In this document: piece by piece, positions 30,001 through 39,000 of the stretch | Position numbering within the stretch: the stretch's first letter is position 1 | Layout of the letters: each line of letters begins with the position of its first letter | Assembly (NCBI GenBank): GCA_965197725.1 | Contig: CBDANQ010000061.1 | Coordinates: forward strand, 128,001-192,000 | Direction: 5' to 3' | Length of the DNA stretch: 64,000 nucleotides | Source: Longimicrobiales bacterium | GTDB lineage: Bacteria > Gemmatimonadota > Gemmatimonadetes > Longimicrobiales > Gaopeijiaceae | Program-made: the position numbers

Positions 30001-33000
30001 CCGAGGGGTGGTCGCGCTCGAGCCATCGGGCGAGCTGCTCGAGCTTCTGCTCGCCCTGCTTCGCGTCCAGCTTCATCGCCGCCCGGAACGCCGCCTTCAC
30101 CTGAGGATGCTGATCCTTCGGCAGATGACCCAGCACGTTGCGGAGCTTGTGGTTGCGGCAGCGCTGGATGGGGTGACGTTGGCCGAACACCTTCTCGATC
30201 GCCTTCCTGAGCGCTTTCGAGCCATCGATCACGAACAGCCGCCGCCTGCCCGGGTCCAGGCCGCGCTCGACCAGATCCTCTAGGAGCGCGCTGGTCACCT
30301 CGGCGTTCTCACTCGCTCCTTCCCTCACGCCCAGCACGTGCTTCTTTCCGTCTGAGTCCACGCCTACCGCAGCAAGCACGTGGTGCGAGCCCATCTGGAT
30401 CCCGTCCAGGTAGATCACCAGGAGGTCCCACGCATCCAGCCGGCGCTCCATCAGCTCCTTCAGCACGCGCTCCGAGGCCTCGACCGTCTCACGGCTCACC
30501 GCCGACTTGCTCACCCCGACCGTGTCGGCCATCTCACCGATCACACGGCCGTACTTTCGCGTGCTCACCCCCGCCATCAGGACCTCGAGCATCCGATCCG
30601 CCACGGCGCCCGGTCTCCGCATCGCTGCGTACGCCGGCACCTCGACCTCGCCACCCTCCCCGGCGCCCCGGCGCCTGAGCCGTGGCCGCTCCACACGCAC
30701 CTTCCGGTCCAACAGGTAAACCACACCACCCTGCCGGCCATACCACACCGTGTCGTCTTCCGCTCGTGACCGACCTGCCTGCTTCACGCCTGCCACACCC
30801 TCGGCGCTCATCTCCAGCACCGCTTCGATCGTCGCTCGTCCCATCACCTGGATGACTTCGTCGATCGCGACCTCCGTCTGCTCCACGAGCTCAAGCATCG
30901 GAAGCAGAAACTGCCCCTCCCGCTTCAGGAACTCCCTGATCGCGCGCTTGTCCGCCCGATCCCTTACCTCGTACGTTCTCTTCATCGTGGTGGCTCCGTG
31001 TTGGGGTTTTTGCCTACCCGAGCCTATCGGCCCGGGACCCCCGGAGCCACCACTTTTCTTTCTCCCCTATCAGGAACCTTCAACTACGGTTGGGACAGCT
31101 TCCCTCCAGTACCTGCCTACGTGTCTCAGGGTCTGACTGCTGGTAGCACCGTCTCAGCGTCTCGGTCTTCAACTTGGCGTCCTGTCTGCTCATTTGATCT
31201 AGACAAGTCAGTCGTCCGGTGAGCGTCGCACTTCTGCAGCGGGACAAGAATGGTGACAGGAAGTAAGGCGCGCGAGCCTCTAACCCACTCTAAAGGGGTC
31301 GCTTGTTAGCTGCCGCCCCGTTCTCGGACCACCGGTCCGCCCGCTAGTCCAACCCGAAGGACCTGTACCTACTCGGTGCAGCCGCAGCGAGCTCCGGCAT
31401 CAGCGTCTCCCCCTCCGTGCGGGCGATGAATGCAGAGCAGCTCAAGTCGCCCGTCACGTTCACCGACGTGCGCAGCATGTCCAGAATGCGATCCACGCCG
31501 AGGATGAGCGCGATGCCTGCCTGCACGTGTTCGCCCATGCCAACGGAATTCAAGACGATGATGAGGGTGATGATGCCGGCAGACGGCACGCCGGCCGTGC
31601 CGACCGAGGCGAGCGTCGCCGTCAGCACGACGACCAGTTGATCCGCCAGTGACAGGTCGAAGCCATAAATCTGAGCGATGAACATGACGGCGACCGCTTG
31701 ATAGAGGGCGGTGCCGTCCATGTTGATGGTTGCCCCGAGCGGCAGCACGAAGCTCGCGACCTCTTCCGAGACACCGAGCTCGTCCTTCGCGGTCTCGATC
31801 GTCAGCGGCAGCGTGGCGTTCGATGAAGACGTCGAGAATGCGAGCAGCGGGACCGCTGCGATTCGCTTGTAGAAGCGCAGCGGATTCAGCCCCCCGAGGA
31901 ACCTCAACACGAGCGCGTAGGTGCCGAAGGCGTGCAGCAGCAGCCCAAGCACCGCCACCCCGGTGTACCTCAGGAGGCTCTGCAGCAGATCGAGCCCGAA
32001 GTTGGAGACCACGGCCGCGATCAGAACGAACACGGCATACGGGGCGAGCTCCATGATCCAGTTGATGAGGACCATCGAGGCTTCGTTGATACCGTGGAAG
32101 AAGTTGAGCACCGCGTCTCTGCGATCGGCCTGGATCACCGTCAGCGCCGCGCCAAAACAGATCGTGAAGAAGATCAGCGACAACAAATCCATGTCCGCCG
32201 CAGCCTGCACCGGGTTGCGCGGGATGATGATCATGAGCGTCTCGACCCATCCGGACGCCTGTTCGGCCAGATCCATACGCTCCAGCGCGGCGCCCCCATA
32301 GCGGGTGGCCAACTCGTCACGTGTCGTCTGGGAGACATCCCCCCCCGGCTTGATCACGTTGGCGAGTCCGAGCCCGATGGTGACCGCGACCGCCGTCGTC
32401 GCCATGTAGTAAACGAGGGTCTTGCCACCAATACGCCCGAGCTTAAGCAGGTCGCCGAGCGATGCCGTCCCCACCAACAAGCTTGCCACCACCAACGGGA
32501 TCACGATCATCGTGATCAGGTTGATGAACGCGGTGCCGAGCGGCTCGAGAGAGCTGAACAGGCTGATCAGCGGATCGATTTGCTGCCAGTTCGCCAGGCC
32601 CCCCATGACGCCGCCGGCGAGGAGTCCGATCAGAATCTTCGTATAGAGCTGCATGCGCTTCCTGTGTTTAGGCTCTCAGGCCTGTCGGCGGCCAGAATAG
32701 ACGACGTGCGTTACTTGCGCCAATCCACGCCAGGCGTTGCTGCGTTCTTCGACCGAGCTCACTCCTGGACGATCACTTCCGCTCGGGTGATCACATCACC
32801 TTCGAGGGGGGCAACCAGCCGGTCTGGTCACCGGACGGCACCCGTGTCGCGTTCGGTTCCGTGCGCGAGGGCACTCTGGACAGTGATCTGTTTGTGAAGA
32901 ACGTCAACGATAACTCACTGCCGACCGGAAGTTCGTGAACGGCGGGCACGCTCAACGCGCCGAACGGCCGTTCTCCTCCAACATCATGAAGTGCTGTTGG

Positions 33001-36000: not shown

Positions 36001-39000
36001 AGGAGCTGGAACGTCGACTTCCCGGCCAACAGCCCCCCCAGCCGCCTCGATGCCGCGAGCTGTTCGAGCACAGCGATGTCCTGCACGGGCAGGTTGAGTC
36101 GTCGACTCATTGTGAAGCGAGCCCTTCCATCCGTTGGTACCCTGTCAGGCGGGCGTCCGCGGGGTGGTATTCGAAGAGCCGCTCGCCCGCGATCACGATG
36201 CGTAGCGTCACGTAAACTTCTTGAGACCCCTAAGCGAGCGCAGCTCCGCCGCGGTGATGACACCGTGGGGCGCGCTGTTGAGCCGGTCGATCACAGCGCC
36301 TTCGACCCCCGACCCGTCGACTTTGGCCAGATACTCGAGCAGCACGCCGCGTCCCTCCACCGGGTTCACCTCGATGAGCTTGAAGCGGTCCGCGAGCTCT
36401 TCGAGCAGTTGATCGACGTAGCGCTGCGCCTGCTCGGCGCCGGGGCCGTACGCCATGATCAGGACGTTGCAGCGCTTCTCTTTCTTCTTGGCACGCTCCG
36501 CATTGAGATGGCGCTCGATCCGCACCGCTTGGTCGGCGATCTCGGCTAGGTCCGCGGGCGCCGCAGCGTCCAGGATCGCGGGATCACCGACCTTGAGCGC
36601 GCTCGCGGCCGAAGCGGGACCCGCGAGCACATCCCCCAACTCCAACGGACCCGAGCGTGCGTTCTGATCCGCATAGATGTTGCCGAACTGCGTCTTCCAG
36701 AGCACGACGATGACCACATTGAAGAGGACGGAGAGCACCAGGGCGATGCCGAGCGCCTGCACGCCGGACGATACACCCACGCCGATCGCGAGGAAGACGT
36801 AGACCGCATCCTTCGTGTCCTCGAGCGTGGTTCGGAAGCGGACCGCCGCGACGATGCCCGCGAGCGAGAAGGCAAGCGCGAGGTTCGCCTGAACGATCAT
36901 GACGATGCCGGTCACGGCCACGGGCAGGATGAGCAGCGTGTGCACCACCGACTCGTGATACCCGCGCTGGCGCCGGGTGATCATGTAGACCCACGTTACG
37001 GGAATCATGATGGCCAATGCGCCTACCATCGAGATCGCTGCGGTGATCGCGCGCGCCCATGTCGAGGTCGCTACGGGGTCCCCGACTGCAGACACATCAG
37101 GATTGAATAGATCGATGTTGGCGAGTTCAGCGAGCCTCGCGCCGGAAATCGCGTCGCGGAAGTCCGGGAAGCGGAGCAATAGGGCGCTCACCGCGCCCAT
37201 GGCGATGTAGTACAGAAGTACTCGCCCGAGACCGCGATTGGAGGTGGACGGTGTGCTTGACTTGCTCATCGACAACTCCGGGTGGTGTGTGAGGGGGCGT
37301 GAAGCGCCCTCTGGCGATGCATGATGCGGGACACTTGGGGTCCGCAGCAAGAATCTCCTGGCAATGTAATCCGGCGGATCGTACTCTTCGAGCAACCCCG
37401 ATATGCGAGGAATGTCATGTCCGTGCGCGGCGCCGTTTTCCCGTGCCTAGCTTTAGTGATCGGCCTGTCCCCCGCGCTCCGGGCGCAGGAGTTCGAATTG
37501 CCTACGCCCGAGGAGTACGCTGAGCGCGCGGAAGTGGCCGAGAACGCGCCTCTATTCCAGGCAGAGGAGGCCCTGCGAATCACGCTCCTGACCGACATCA
37601 AGTGGCTTCGCGACAAGCGCATCGACACGATGGAAGTCGACGGGACACTCACGTTCGCAGGAGCGCACGGTGCGCAAATCGAACAGACCATAGAGGTGCG
37701 TACGCGCGGCAACTTCAGGCGGGACAAGCGCAACTGCAACTTCCCGCCGCTCAGGCTCGACTTCCCCAAAAAGCAGATGGAAGGCACCGTTTTCGAAGGT
37801 CAGGACAAGCTCAAGTTGGTTACGCCTTGCTACGACGGTCGCGACAGCTTTCAACGCTACGTCTACCTGGAGTACCTGGTGTACAAGGCGTACCAACTGT
37901 TCACGCCCGCATCGTTCCGGGTCCGGCTCGTCGAGATCACGTACGAGGACATCAACGACGACTACGATGCGCGCACCAAGATCGGTTTTCTCATCGAGAG
38001 CGACGAGAACATGGCCGAGCGCAACCGGGCGGTCTACACCGACTACGAAGACTTCGGCGGAGGGCAGTTCCACCCAGCCCGCGTCGACGGCGACGGAGCC
38101 GTGCTGGTGGGGATGTTCAACTACATGATCGGCAACACGGACTGGTCGGCCGTTCAGGGGCACAACATCAAGCTGATGCGGACCGAGCCCGGGAAGTACT
38201 TGACGGTGCCGTACGACTTCGACTTCTCTGGGGCGGTCGATGCGCGCTACGCGTCGCCCGCCGCGTCGTTGACCGAGCAGTACCGGCTGCGACGCGTGAC
38301 CGCCCGGCTCTACCGCGGCTTGTGTCGGCCCCAGCTCGTGCAGGCGACGCAGGCGCCCATGTTCAATGAGCGGCGGGATGCCCTCTGGGACTTGTACATG
38401 AGCTTCGAGCTGTTGGAAGAGGACCGGCGTGAGGACGCGGTGGAGTTCTACGAGGACTTCTACGAGACCCTCAACAGCGAGCGTGACTTCGAGCGCAAAA
38501 TGACGGACATGTGCCGGCCCTTGCCCGGCTAGTGACGGGACCCGCTGGTCGCGCCCGCGAGCTTCGAGCGCGAAGGGACATCGAGCAGGGTCTTGCCGAG
38601 ATGGTGGGCCTGGTGCGAGGCGTCATCGCCGATGGTGTCGTGTCCAGCGACGAAGCCGAACGCCTCGCCGCATGGACGAGAGCGCATTCGGAAGTCGTGA
38701 CCCGGTGGCCGGCCAACATCCTCTCTCGCAGGCTCGAGCGCATCTTCCTCGATGGTCGGGTGGACCGAAGAGAGCAGAAGCACCTGGGCGCCCTGATCTC
38801 ACAGCTCGCCGAGAACCCCGCCGGATACGGGGGCGGTTTTCCGCTCGCGACCGACGGGCCGCTCACCACACCGGAGCCGGACGTCGTCTTCGAAGGACAG
38901 ACCTTCCTGTTTGCCGGCGAGATGGCATACGGCCCCGTCCTCGCATGTGAGCGCGAAATCACCGAATTGGGCGGCACCTGCGAGCGCATCGTCAAGCGCC

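What a model noticed while it worked through the whole genome (the two positions that open the first line are those of the whole stretch)
32952..38532. Second polyphosphate kinase 1 with an N-terminal CYTH (triphosphate-tunnel) extension beside a DUF4956 membrane protein [...]
Besides a normal 689-aa PPK1 (g02055) the genome has a 1052-aa PPK1 (g02933) whose first ~330 residues are a CYTH/TTM domain lacking ExExK plus a second unassigned domain, followed by a DUF4956 membrane protein. I read the pair as a bacterial analogue of the eukaryotic VTC complex, in which a tunnel domain and a membrane partner handle the growing polyphosphate chain. That would be a new polyP architecture, so far seen only in Gemmatimonadota.
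Evidence so far: Pfam CYTH 24-168, PPK1 domains 372-1032. 81 90%-clusters, 79 of them 972-1072 aa, share the extension at 39-89% identity; named ones are Gemmatimonadota/Longimicrobiales 'polyphosphate kinase 1'. 23-sequence alignment: invariant R38 D43 R59 E105 R120 D126 R129 E130 D149 in the extension. neighbours.tsv: PP_kinase families next to DUF4956 in 497-507 of about 20,300 genomes with both, 54-59 of 457 in the order.
(Added by a program. Inside this text positions count along the whole contig: contig position 128,001 is position 1 of the stretch shown here. "Call 12" and the like, gene names such as g00115 and contig names such as C1 are that model's own, and its searches are not shown. 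The text may have been shortened before it was handed on; [...] marks where a part breaks off. The agent that wrote the report below was given it as the finding of a first reader that could run no searches.)

Follow-up and report, generated by a model that had tools for sequence, protein, structure and literature searches.

The report
Membrane-coupled polyphosphate kinase with tunnel domain
A soil/sediment bacterium carries a second polyphosphate kinase that has gained two extra front domains and is genetically welded to a membrane protein of unknown function, which points to a so far undescribed membrane-bound way of making (and perhaps exporting) polyphosphate.

Summary
Both lack their catalytic signatures. 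A 353-aa DUF4956 protein (six helices plus an ACT-like end) is encoded 97 nt upstream, not downstream. A divergent, signal-peptide-bearing CotH-like gene faces it. The extension occurs in 69-75 of 401 sampled genomes of the phylum. DUF4956 lies upstream on the same strand in 16 of 20 loci examined.

New here:
- Natural single-chain fusions exist: DUF4956-PPK1 (~930 aa, three genomes) and DUF4956-CYTH-Nudix-PPK1 (1317 aa).
- The fused kinases nest inside the extended-PPK1 clade.
- The same phylum also holds the published CotH + VTC-polymerase + DUF4956 trio.

So DUF4956 is most likely a membrane partner of polyphosphate synthases of either type. The VTC analogy holds for the coupling. It does not hold for homology: the tunnel is YgiF-like and probably non-catalytic, and no similarity to the VTC membrane part was found. 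Translocation is untested.

Earlier notes of this scan describe a similar operon in another Gemmatimonadota genome.

Verdict: new variant of a known kind; interest 0.68.

The parts
32952..36110 (-). PPK1-long, 1052 aa (P0001): CYTH/TTM + Nudix-like + complete PPK1
   Evidence: The ATG 36110 start is supported by homologue N-termini.
35490..36110 (-). Residues 1-207: triphosphate-tunnel (CYTH) domain, Arg-lined, without ExExK
   Evidence: Pfam CYTH 27.8-31.8 bits. AF2 model pLDDT 86.9. YgiF Z 19.6, rmsd 2.9, 197 aligned; Foldseek TTM3/YgiF E about 1e-9 to 3e-10. Column counts.
35076..35474 (-). Residues 213-345: Nudix-fold domain with a degenerate Nudix box
   Evidence: VIA Z 11.7 to 3i9x (rmsd 3.0, 121 aligned). 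NrtR, AraR and MutY C-domains are also in the list. No Pfam NUDIX hit in 39 members. Box columns.
32952..34997 (-). Residues 372-1052: PPK1 core (N, head, C1, C2 domains) plus stop codon
   Evidence: End-to-end match to solved PPK1: 2o8r 1e-103, 1xdo 2.7e-100.
36111..36207 (-). 97-nt gap between DUF4956 and PPK1-long
   Evidence: No promoter-like or terminator-like site in it. In relatives the two genes abut or overlap (L034, L039, L046, L052).
36208..37269 (-). Long-form DUF4956 membrane protein, 353 aa (P0002)
   Evidence: PF16316 45.7 bits. 3395 homologues at E<=0.001 among 8000 candidates scored. AF2 model pLDDT 79.4.
36691..37236 (-). Residues 12-193: six predicted membrane helices. Invariant A133 F134 L136 R146 D154, within the conserved stretch around residues 131-160.
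   Evidence: The topology (N-in, C-in) is my reading from charge distribution.
36220..36489 (-). Residues 261-350: C-terminal beta-alpha-beta-beta-alpha-beta (ACT-like) domain
   Evidence: VIA Z 9-10 to ACT domains and to MgtC C-domains (2lqj Z 9.6, rmsd 2.7, 87 aligned).
37321..38532 (+). Divergently transcribed CotH-like protein (P0003). The likely start is 37417, giving a signal-peptide-like N-terminus.
   Evidence: No Pfam hit for P0003 itself. Its 85%-identical homologue hits CotH at 28.4 bits, cut-off 23.8. hhalign to a true CotH gives E 0.29 but over the GN.D / HN / D.D motifs, which are invariant in A3. Atlas result.
38511..39152 (+). 213-aa ORF overlapping the end of the CotH-like gene; conserved only in the window's own family
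   Evidence: tblastn hits in L033-L035 only. No Pfam hit.

Best explanation
The two minus-strand genes encode one membrane-bound polyphosphate-synthesis unit.

- The catalytic part is a dedicated PPK1 paralogue, a complete kinase that makes polyP from ATP.
- Its ~350-residue N-terminal extension is a non-catalytic adaptor. It has a triphosphate-tunnel domain that keeps the arginines lining the tunnel but has lost the metal-binding acids, so it would bind rather than cleave a phosphate chain. It also has a Nudix-fold domain without the Nudix box, for ligand sensing or docking.
- The extension couples the kinase to the DUF4956 inner-membrane protein. DUF4956 has six helices with an invariant charged motif on the cytoplasmic face, plus a cytoplasmic ACT-like domain.
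- The secreted CotH-like protein encoded divergently, and the outer-membrane proteins seen in related loci, suggest that the product is used at or beyond the membrane.

Shown: domain identities, conservation, synteny, natural fusions.
Inferred: physical docking, chain binding by the tunnel, where the polyP ends up.
For: 1. Domains.
2. Loss of catalytic signatures:
   - The beta1 strand is R4-x-N6-x-P8 in the window, against E(16/39)-x-R/K(30/39)-x-D/E(30/39) in the family.
   - The basic residues are kept: R38, R129 and R132 in 39/39; R52 and R59 in 37/39; R57 in 33/39.
   - The Nudix REUxEE glutamates are not conserved.
3. Synteny:
   - A DUF4956 homologue lies upstream on the same strand within about 0.05-5 kb in 16 of 20 fetched loci.
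   - Cross-reading searches gives at least 39 of 75 genomes. This is a lower bound, because only 150 of 251 DUF4956 matches were listed.
   - The two genes abut or overlap in L034, L039, L046 and L052.
4. Fusions:
   - DUF4956-PPK1 occurs as 934, 928 and 1196 aa proteins in three genomes.
   - DUF4956-CYTH-Nudix-PPK1 occurs as a 1317-aa protein: 4 cluster members on 2 contigs, colinear with P0002 7-216 and P0001 4-1044.
   - Both fusion types lack the ACT-like domain.
5. Tree of 29 PPK cores:
   - The 23 'special' kinases sit on one side of a branch (87/99) from 6 plain PPK1.
   - The fused clade (100/99) is nested in the extended ones.
6. In the same phylum DUF4956 also sits next to VTC-domain polymerases in 4 of 16 further loci, with CotH beside them in two of these (L053, L055). 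This is the trio noted in PMC7112168.
7. Each of 4 of 5 genomes checked has one plain plus one special PPK1. The own genome has both.
Against: - No direct evidence of binding.
- DUF4956 is not adjacent in 4 of 20 loci.
- DUF4956 also occurs without any polyP synthase nearby. L063, L066 and L067 have only a CotH-like neighbour, and L064 has an Omp85 neighbour.
- In many loci of the sister family a Hanks-type kinase, a metallophosphoesterase or an Omp85 gene separates the pair.
- The window's own clade has lost several basic tunnel positions that are kept elsewhere: Q66, Q122, T166, M168 and N6. This weakens chain binding for this particular protein.
- Part of the wider family keeps E4, D/E8 and E124-x-E126, so the tunnel may be catalytic in those members.
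- Co-transcription is not shown. Only contigs 90-99% alike from RNA libraries cover parts of both genes.
Confidence: 0.62

Rival explanations
1. VTC-like synthase-translocase. PPK1-long docks on DUF4956, and the Arg-lined tunnel guides the nascent chain to a DUF4956 pore. PolyP is threaded across the inner membrane as it is made, to be used in the periplasm or at the surface, for instance by the secreted CotH-like protein.
For: - All the coupling evidence above.
- DUF4956 pairs with true VTC polymerases in the same phylum.
- The invariant R146...D154 motif sits on the predicted cytoplasmic face.
- Neighbours are exported or outer-membrane proteins. The CotH-like protein has a signal-peptide-like N-terminus. 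Omp85-type genes lie beside the pair in L040, L049 and L064.
- Earlier notes of this scan report VTC-DUF4956-HlyD-TolC cassettes (not checked here).
Against: - No channel-like or VTC-like structural match for the membrane part (0 hits at E<=0.001).
- The only weak kinship is to MgtC, which I recall as a regulatory protein, not a channel.
- The tunnel domain is YgiF-like, not VTC-like.
- No experimental case of polyP export by such a system was found in the papers I searched.
Confidence: 0.28
2. Regulatory tether. DUF4956 is an MgtC-like sensor/regulator whose ACT-like domain binds a metabolite. The Nudix-like and CYTH domains sense nucleotides or short phosphate chains. Together they switch the second PPK1 on or off at the membrane, and no polyP is translocated.
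For: - The ACT-like fold gives Z 9-10, including MgtC C-domains.
- hhalign of A2 against 4 MgtC sequences gives probability 61%, E 7.9e-5, over 120 columns covering the last two helices and the C-domain.
- Short DUF4956 forms hit Pfam MgtC at E 2-4e-5, below the cut-off.
- The non-catalytic Nudix folds NrtR and AraR are ligand sensors (titles).
- Ser/Thr kinases and a histidine phosphatase are frequent neighbours.
Against: - The fusions drop the ACT-like domain yet keep the membrane part. So the membrane helices, not the putative sensor, are the indispensable element.
- The ferredoxin-like fold is very common, and Z 9-10 is only a little above the background of 7-8 quoted.
Confidence: 0.25
3. 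Bifunctional enzyme. The CYTH domain is an active tri-/polyphosphatase (like YgiF or plant TTM3), so one chain both makes and trims polyP. DUF4956 is an unrelated neighbour.
For: - The closest structures are active TTM phosphatases.
- Much of the wider family keeps E4 (16/39), D/E8 (30/39) and E124/E126 (24 and 30/39).
Against: - The window protein has R4, N6, P8 and A124 at these places.
- Synteny and the two fusion types make DUF4956 more than a chance neighbour.
Confidence: 0.08

Closest known systems
Eukaryotic VTC complex (Vtc4/Vtc3/Vtc1; PDB 7ytj, 8i6v, 3g3q as listed)
   Same: A polyP synthase joined to a membrane module. A triphosphate-tunnel fold is present, and an extra sensor-type domain sits on the cytoplasmic side. 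DUF4956 is also the neighbour of bacterial VTC-domain proteins.
   Different: - Here the polymerase is PPK1, not the tunnel domain.
- The tunnel is YgiF-like (Z 19.6 against 11.4-12.5), lacks ExExK and has no PF09359 hit.
- No similarity of the membrane part to VTC was detected.
- Translocation is unproven.
CotH + VTC-domain 'polyphosphate polymerase' + DUF4956 accessory genes of Gram-positive pel loci (PMC7112168, passages; bioRxiv 10.1101/2024.04.20.589940, passages)
   Same: The same DUF4956 family, here as a four-helix membrane part with a C-terminal ACT-type domain. A CotH-type exported protein lies beside it and a polyP-making enzyme beside that. The canonical trio also occurs in this phylum (L053).
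   Different: - The VTC polymerase is replaced by a CYTH-Nudix-PPK1.
- DUF4956 is the long form, with an extra N-terminal helix and a ~70-aa linker.
- The CotH relative is so divergent that Pfam misses it in the window.
- No pel genes are nearby.
Bacterial PPK1 (E. coli 1xdo, P. gingivalis 2o8r)
   Same: All four domains are present, with an end-to-end alignment at E about 1e-100. The KTHAK and LEHSR motifs align, and the TIGR03705 equivalog score is above its cut-off.
   Different: - It carries a ~350-residue N-terminal CYTH + Nudix-like extension.
- It forms a separate clade from the plain PPK1 of the same genomes.
- It is linked or fused to DUF4956.
YgiF-type CYTH proteins and CHAD partners (5a60/5a61; bioRxiv 10.1101/567040, abstract)
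   Same: This is the best structural match of domain 1. TTM enzymes and CHAD proteins are known companions of polyP enzymes. A CHAD gene follows PPK1-long in L040.
   Different: The window's domain has no ExExK, no CHAD domain is fused to it, and it sits on a kinase.
MgtC/SapB family (PF02308; C-domains 2lqj, 7qa5)
   Same: A membrane helical part followed by an ACT-like C-domain. There are weak profile matches.
   Different: All scores are below family thresholds and the conserved DUF4956 motif is its own. MgtC's reported roles (recalled, not read here) are regulatory.

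Membership tests
PPK1 (TIGR03705; PF13089/PF02503/PF17941/PF13090) | All four domains in order, with scores above the curated cut-offs | tested here: met
   102-225 bits per domain; TIGR03705 706.5 against 465.85.
PPK1 (TIGR03705; PF13089/PF02503/PF17941/PF13090) | Conserved histidine of the C1 domain (the autophosphorylated His; its role is recalled) and the second HKD-like motif | tested here: met
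   'ykthaktal' aligns to 'lkvhaktal' of 2o8r, and 'lehsri' aligns to 'lehsri'.
PPK1 (TIGR03705; PF13089/PF02503/PF17941/PF13090) | ATP-dependent polyP synthesis | not testable with these tools
   An enzyme assay is needed.
CYTH / triphosphate tunnel metalloenzymes (PF01928) | Family profile match and closed beta-tunnel fold | tested here: met
   Pfam 27.8 bits (31.8 for the extension alone) against a cut-off of 23.2. 37 of 39 family members hit at E<=1. YgiF Z 19.6, rmsd 2.9, 197 aligned.
CYTH / triphosphate tunnel metalloenzymes (PF01928) | N-terminal ExExK metal/substrate motif | tested here: not met
   the window has R4-L-N6-L-P8. The family consensus is E-x-R/K-x-D/E (16, 30 and 30 of 39).
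CYTH / triphosphate tunnel metalloenzymes (PF01928) | Basic residues lining the tunnel | tested here: met
   R38, R129 and R132 in 39/39; R52 and R59 in 37/39; R57 in 33/39. That they point into the tunnel is inferred from strand register and was not measured.
VTC polyP polymerase (PF09359) / VTC complex | VTC-family tunnel domain | tested here: not met
   No PF09359 hit at E<=1 in any of 39 extensions, and none in the own genome. True VTC proteins of the phylum score 99-140 bits.
VTC polyP polymerase (PF09359) / VTC complex | Membrane part related to the Vtc1-type transmembrane domain | tested here: inconclusive
   Foldseek gave 0 hits at E<=0.001. The VIA list was filled by the C-terminal domain.
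VTC polyP polymerase (PF09359) / VTC complex | Synthesis coupled to translocation of polyP | not testable with these tools
   Reconstitution is needed.
Nudix hydrolases (PF00293) | Nudix fold | tested here: met
   Z 11.7 (3i9x, rmsd 3.0, 121 aligned), with many Nudix entries at Z 9.4-11.6 over residues 213-345.
Nudix hydrolases (PF00293) | Nudix box GX5EX7REUXEEXGU (motif recalled) | tested here: not met
   G247, G249, E250, R254, L257, R258 and G262 are conserved, but no register gives RE..EE. No Pfam NUDIX hit in 39 members.
DUF4956 (PF16316) | Profile match above cut-off | tested here: met
   45.7 bits against 30.6, covering profile positions 3-107 of 169. Short VTC-linked forms match all 169 positions.
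MgtC/SapB (PF02308) | Profile match above cut-off, with the same architecture | tested here: inconclusive
   Pfam gives 24-25 bits against a cut-off of 31.4, and only for short forms. hhalign probability 61%, E 7.9e-5. C-domain Z 9.4-9.6.
CotH kinase (PF08757), for the divergent neighbour P0003 | Profile match and catalytic motifs | tested here: inconclusive
   P0003 has no hit. Its 85%-identical homologue scores 28.4 bits against 23.8. hhalign to a true CotH gives E 0.29, over motifs that are invariant in A3. The profile against PDB sequences gave 0 hits. In the Atlas, 2 of 30 hits belong to a set where 11% of members carry CotH.

The most novel reading that the evidence does not exclude
DUF4956 is the long-sought bacterial polyphosphate conduit. 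It would be an inner-membrane module on which either type of synthase (VTC-type tunnel polymerase or PPK1) docks or is fused, and through which nascent polyP is passed out of the cytoplasm. This would supply exported CotH-type kinases and envelope proteins with a phosphoryl/energy source where ATP is lacking. The CYTH-Nudix extension would be the docking and chain-guiding adaptor that let PPK1 take over the polymerase seat.
Probability: 0.25. Interest if true: 0.9.

Novelty: new variant of a known kind. Interest (0 to 1): 0.68.

Why it matters
PolyP synthesis in bacteria is treated as a cytosolic affair of PPK1/PPK2. The only known synthase coupled to a membrane passage is the eukaryotic VTC complex.

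- This locus, with its natural fusions, ties an uncharacterised and very widespread membrane family (DUF4956) to polyP synthases of two unrelated kinds.
- It shows a PPK1 lineage that has acquired a degenerate tunnel domain and a degenerate Nudix domain.
- This turns 'what is DUF4956 / the bacterial VTC trio for?' into a testable question. It also offers single-chain natural fusions (~930 and 1317 aa) as ready samples for biochemistry and cryo-EM.
- From memory, not read here: Gemmatimonadota include a polyP-accumulating organism first isolated from phosphorus-removal sludge. A second, membrane-coupled PPK1 may therefore also bear on phosphorus cycling.

Tried and rejected
- **Complex prediction.** The extension (A1) with DUF4956 (A2) gave no answer: score 0.00 against a mark of 0.32. 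It says nothing either way.
- **Foldseek of the DUF4956 model against PDB.** No hit at E<=0.001, so no VTC or channel match. The VIA wide list was filled by the C-terminal domain, so the membrane part is barely tested.
- **The search for related loci with A1 on genome contigs.** It failed because the alignment has no conserved stretch. So the range outside the phylum rests on names of hits only: where only 3 of 10 clusters looked up carry a taxon name.
- **CotH-like family profile (A3) against PDB sequences.** 0 hits.
- **A3 against two Omp85-type neighbours.** E 0.22 and 0.04, inconclusive.
- **Phmmer of the extension against PDB.** Only E 0.8-1.7.
- **Promoter/terminator scan.** Nothing in the DUF4956-PPK1 gap. 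The single terminator-like site, inside PPK1, is within chance expectation.
- **RNA evidence.** Contigs from two marine-sediment metatranscriptome runs of two studies (X22, X23), plus two doubtful 'RNA?' runs, hold pieces 90-99% alike. They cover parts of PPK1-long (e.g. 32952-33364, 35531-35903) and DUF4956 (36276-36900). They come from relatives, DNA carry-over is not excluded, and uncovered parts prove nothing.
- **Own genome (88.9% complete).** PPK2, VTC and Ppx-GppA were not found with these family models. This is not proof of absence.
- **Rejected: the 1103-aa GTG start.** Homologues begin at the ATG.
- **Rejected: chance adjacency.** Synteny and the fusions argue against it.

Full report
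**What is there**

On the minus strand the window holds two co-directional genes.
- Upstream is a 353-aa DUF4956 protein, at 36208-37269 (P0002).
- After a 97-nt gap comes a 1052-aa polyphosphate kinase 1, at 32952-36110 (P0001).
- Pfam and NCBIfam confirm a complete PPK1 at residues 372-1032. All four domains score 102-225 bits, and the TIGR03705 equivalog scores 706.5 against a cut-off of 465.85.
- Pfam also gives a CYTH match at residues 24-168 (27.8 bits, cut-off 23.2) and DUF4956 at residues 85-190 of the neighbour (45.7 bits, cut-off 30.6).
- The PPK core aligns end to end with solved PPK1 structures (2o8r 1e-103, 1xdo 2.7e-100), including the KTHAK and LEHSR motifs.
- The genome has a second, plain PPK1 on another contig.
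- The ATG at 36110, not the upstream GTG, is the likely start, because homologues begin there.
- One correction to the finding: DUF4956 precedes the kinase, it does not follow it.
- A third gene is transcribed divergently at 37321-38532(+) (P0003). It has no Pfam hit of its own.

**The N-terminal extension**

I aligned 39 extensions taken from genomes of the same phylum (A1) and folded the window's copy (pLDDT 86.9, pTM 0.71).
- Residues 1-207 are a triphosphate-tunnel fold. The best match is E. coli YgiF (Z 19.6, rmsd 2.9, 197 aligned), followed by other CYTH proteins. Vtc2 and Vtc4 reach only Z 11.4-12.5. Foldseek agrees: TTM3 and YgiF at about 1e-9 to 3e-10, VTC at about 1e-7.
The top match is Z 11.7 to 3i9x (rmsd 3.0, 121 aligned), with dozens of Nudix entries. 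These include the non-catalytic Nudix domains of NrtR, AraR and MutY.
- Pfam finds CYTH in 37 of 39 members at E<=1. It finds neither VTC (PF09359) nor NUDIX in any of them.

Column counts show what is kept and what is lost.
- The tunnel arginines are kept: R38, R129 and R132 in 39/39, R52 and R59 in 37/39, R57 in 33/39.
- The ExExK strand reads E(16/39)-x-R/K(30/39)-x-D/E(30/39) in the family. In the window's clade it reads R-L-N-L-P.
- The window's clade has also lost basic residues present elsewhere: Q66, Q122, T166 and M168.
- In the Nudix helix G247, G249, E250, R254, L257, R258 and G262 are conserved, but the RE..EE glutamates of the Nudix box (motif recalled) are not.
- Both extra domains therefore look like binding modules, not hydrolases, at least in this protein.

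**Distribution**

- A region search found 101 clusters carrying the extension, 97 of them 972-1072 aa. Every cluster that carries a taxon name is Gemmatimonadota, Gemmatimonadales or Longimicrobiales.
- In 401 sampled genomes of the phylum, 75 match at E<=0.001 and 69 at E<=1e-8. The six weakest look like ordinary CYTH proteins. This tally includes the unpublished genome G182.
- A profile search of 1.84 billion representatives gave 183 hits at E<=1e-30. Full-length forms are about 1040-1078 aa. A ~927-936-aa variant has the CYTH domain only. Pfam sees only PPK1 in one of these, P0335.
- Of ten divergent hits looked up, only three clusters carry a taxon name, and all are Gemmatimonadota.
- My attempt to scan named genomes of all phyla failed for a technical reason. 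Confinement to the phylum is therefore compatible with the data but not shown.

**Linkage to DUF4956**

- I fetched 20 loci of about 16 kb, choosing them before I knew where DUF4956 lay. In 16 of them a DUF4956 homologue lies upstream on the same strand.
- Cross-reading the match tables gives at least 39 of 75 genomes with DUF4956 within 8 kb on the same contig. This is a lower bound, since 101 DUF4956 matches were not listed.
- There are two spacing classes.
  - In one, the genes abut or overlap (L034, L039, L046, L052).
  - In the other, about 3-5 kb apart, the gene in between is a Hanks-type Ser/Thr kinase with TPR repeats (L037, L038, L043), or a metallophosphoesterase (L047) that in L049 is followed by an Omp85-type gene.
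- DUF4956 is more widespread than the extension: 194 of 401 genomes.

**What DUF4956 pairs with elsewhere in the phylum**

I fetched 16 further DUF4956 loci and scanned 30 of their 109 candidate ORFs, those nearest to DUF4956.
- Four loci have a true VTC-domain protein (99-140 bits) next to a short DUF4956. Two of them also have CotH (L053: CotH 180 bits; L055). This is the gene trio noted beside Gram-positive pel operons (PMC7112168, passages; bioRxiv 10.1101/2024.04.20.589940, passages).
- Three loci (L060-L062) encode a single protein of 934, 928 or 1196 aa. In it the DUF4956 helices are followed directly by a full PPK1, with no CYTH, no Nudix and no ACT-like domain.
- A cluster found by the profile search (P0234, 1317 aa, 4 members on 2 contigs) is DUF4956-CYTH-Nudix-PPK1 in one chain. 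It is colinear with P0002 residues 7-216 (46% identity) and P0001 residues 4-1044 (40% identity). It too lacks the ACT-like domain.
- In a maximum-likelihood tree of 29 PPK cores, the 23 'special' kinases (19 CYTH-Nudix, 1 CYTH-only, 3 fused) lie on one side of a branch (87/99) from the 6 plain PPK1. The fused clade (100/99) is nested within the extended ones, sister to a locus whose DUF4956 and kinase genes overlap. The root is a midpoint root, for drawing only.
- Four of five genomes checked have one plain and one special PPK1. The fifth has only the fused one.

These fusions are the strongest evidence that DUF4956 and this PPK1 lineage work as one unit.

**DUF4956 itself**

- The alignment A2 (33 sequences: long, short and fused forms) has invariant A133, F134, L136, R146 and D154 in a highly conserved helix-loop-helix.
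- The model (pLDDT 79.4) has six membrane-length helices, a disordered linker (200-228), a long helix, and a beta-alpha-beta-beta-alpha-beta domain at 269-345.
- By charge distribution I read the topology as N-in/C-in, with the invariant motif on the cytoplasmic face. This is inference.
- The C-terminal domain matches ACT-type folds at Z 9-10, among them the MgtC C-domains (2lqj: Z 9.6, rmsd 2.7, 87 aligned). That is only a little above the background quoted by the tool.
- Short DUF4956 forms hit Pfam MgtC below its cut-off. A profile comparison with four MgtC proteins of relatives gives probability 61%, E 7.9e-5, over the last two helices plus the C-domain (the tally includes the unpublished G097). 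A distant MgtC kinship is possible but unproven.
- Nothing resembling the VTC membrane part or a known channel was found. That is not evidence of absence.

**The divergent neighbour**

- P0003 has a signal-peptide-like N-terminus if it starts at 37417.
- Its 85%-identical homologue passes the CotH cut-off (28.4 against 23.8 bits).
- Its family (A3, 9 sequences) has invariant G271, N272, D274, H281, N282, P297, D299 and D301. These align with the GN.D / HN / D.D stretch of a true CotH of the phylum, although the comparison as a whole is not significant (E 0.29).
- The Atlas places it among unnamed Gemmatimonadota clusters. In 2 of 30 hits, the set has CotH on 11% of its members.
- Homologues sit beside DUF4956 in L033-L035, L039, L063, L066 and L067. 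In L037 and L038 they sit directly upstream of a second extended-PPK1 paralogue.
- I call it a probable, very divergent CotH-like exported protein.

**How it most likely works**

- Shown: a complete PPK1 paralogue, two degenerate extra domains, a conserved and sometimes covalent link to the DUF4956 membrane module, and exported or outer-membrane neighbours.
- Inferred: DUF4956 holds the kinase at the membrane. Where the two are separate genes, the ACT-like domain and linker of DUF4956 and the CYTH-Nudix extension provide the docking. The ACT-like domain disappears whenever the chains are fused. The Arg-lined tunnel binds a phosphate chain or a triphosphate end.
- Open: whether polyP is then kept at the membrane, regulated there, or threaded out as in VTC. 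I give the coupling model 0.62 and the translocation version 0.25-0.28.
- A purely regulatory, MgtC-like reading and an active-phosphatase reading remain as rivals.

**Known or new**

- The DUF4956/VTC/CotH neighbourhood is in print, but only as a remark without function. My full-text search for 'DUF4956' found 5 papers. Of these I read passages of PMC7112168. The 2024 preprint came from the CotH/VTC/polyphosphate search (passages read).
- I found no paper describing a CYTH- or Nudix-extended PPK1 or a DUF4956-PPK1 fusion. The searches were 'CYTH' + 'polyphosphate kinase' + 'Nudix' (3 papers, none on this; PMC12995831 passages mention Nudix and CHAD genes as usual PPK neighbours) and 'Gemmatimonadota' + 'polyphosphate kinase' + 'ppk1' (none). 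Supplements were not read.
- Earlier AI notes of this scan describe a DUF4956 / Omp85 / CYTH-extended PPK1 operon in another Gemmatimonadota genome, and VTC-DUF4956-adaptor-TolC cassettes elsewhere. The idea has therefore been raised before on other DNA. The fusions and the tree are new here.

**Verdict**

This is a real, conserved system: a new variant of a known kind (PPK1), with a credible but untested claim to something more novel.

Noticed in passing
window 29696-30985 (-) and 31344-32654 (-): A Mutator-family transposase (PF00872, 142.5 bits) and a sodium:dicarboxylate symporter (PF00375, 406 bits) lie just downstream of PPK1-long. The transposase marks a possible rearrangement point next to the locus.
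   Followed up: no
window 38511-39152 (+): A 213-aa ORF overlaps the end of the CotH-like gene by 22 nt. It is conserved in the same place in L033-L035 only (65-93% identity) and has no Pfam hit. Its C-terminal half looks BRCT-like to my eye; this was not tested.
   Followed up: partly
L037 (G160 C38) and L038 (G347 C58): Two extended-PPK1 paralogues lie about 11-12 kb apart on one contig. One is preceded by a ~955-aa Hanks kinase with TPR repeats, the other by the CotH-like gene. Neither has a P0002-like DUF4956 hit in the fetched stretch.
   Followed up: partly
L040 (G142 C1:1774500-1790500): A polyP gene island. PPK1-long is followed by a CHAD-domain gene, and it converges on an operon of a plain PPK1, a histidine phosphatase (His_Phos_1) and DUF4956.
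   Followed up: partly
L040 6559-7980, L049 4534-7143, L064 3747-6674, L041 1482-4061: Omp85-superfamily barrel proteins (474-976 aa, weak Pfam matches of 24-48 bits) recur right beside DUF4956 or PPK1-long. Their long N-terminal parts have no Pfam match. Comparison with the CotH-like family was inconclusive.
   Followed up: partly
control genomes: Among the 14 named control genomes, DUF4956 and VTC ring in exactly the same three: Bacteroides thetaiotaomicron, Corynebacterium glutamicum and Methanosarcina acetivorans.
   Followed up: no
window 36155-36200, run X20: One contig of a relative joins the DUF4956 side and the PPK1 side with about 791 other letters in between. This recalls L035, where a 304-aa NHL/SdiA-regulated-like gene sits between the two genes.
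   Followed up: no
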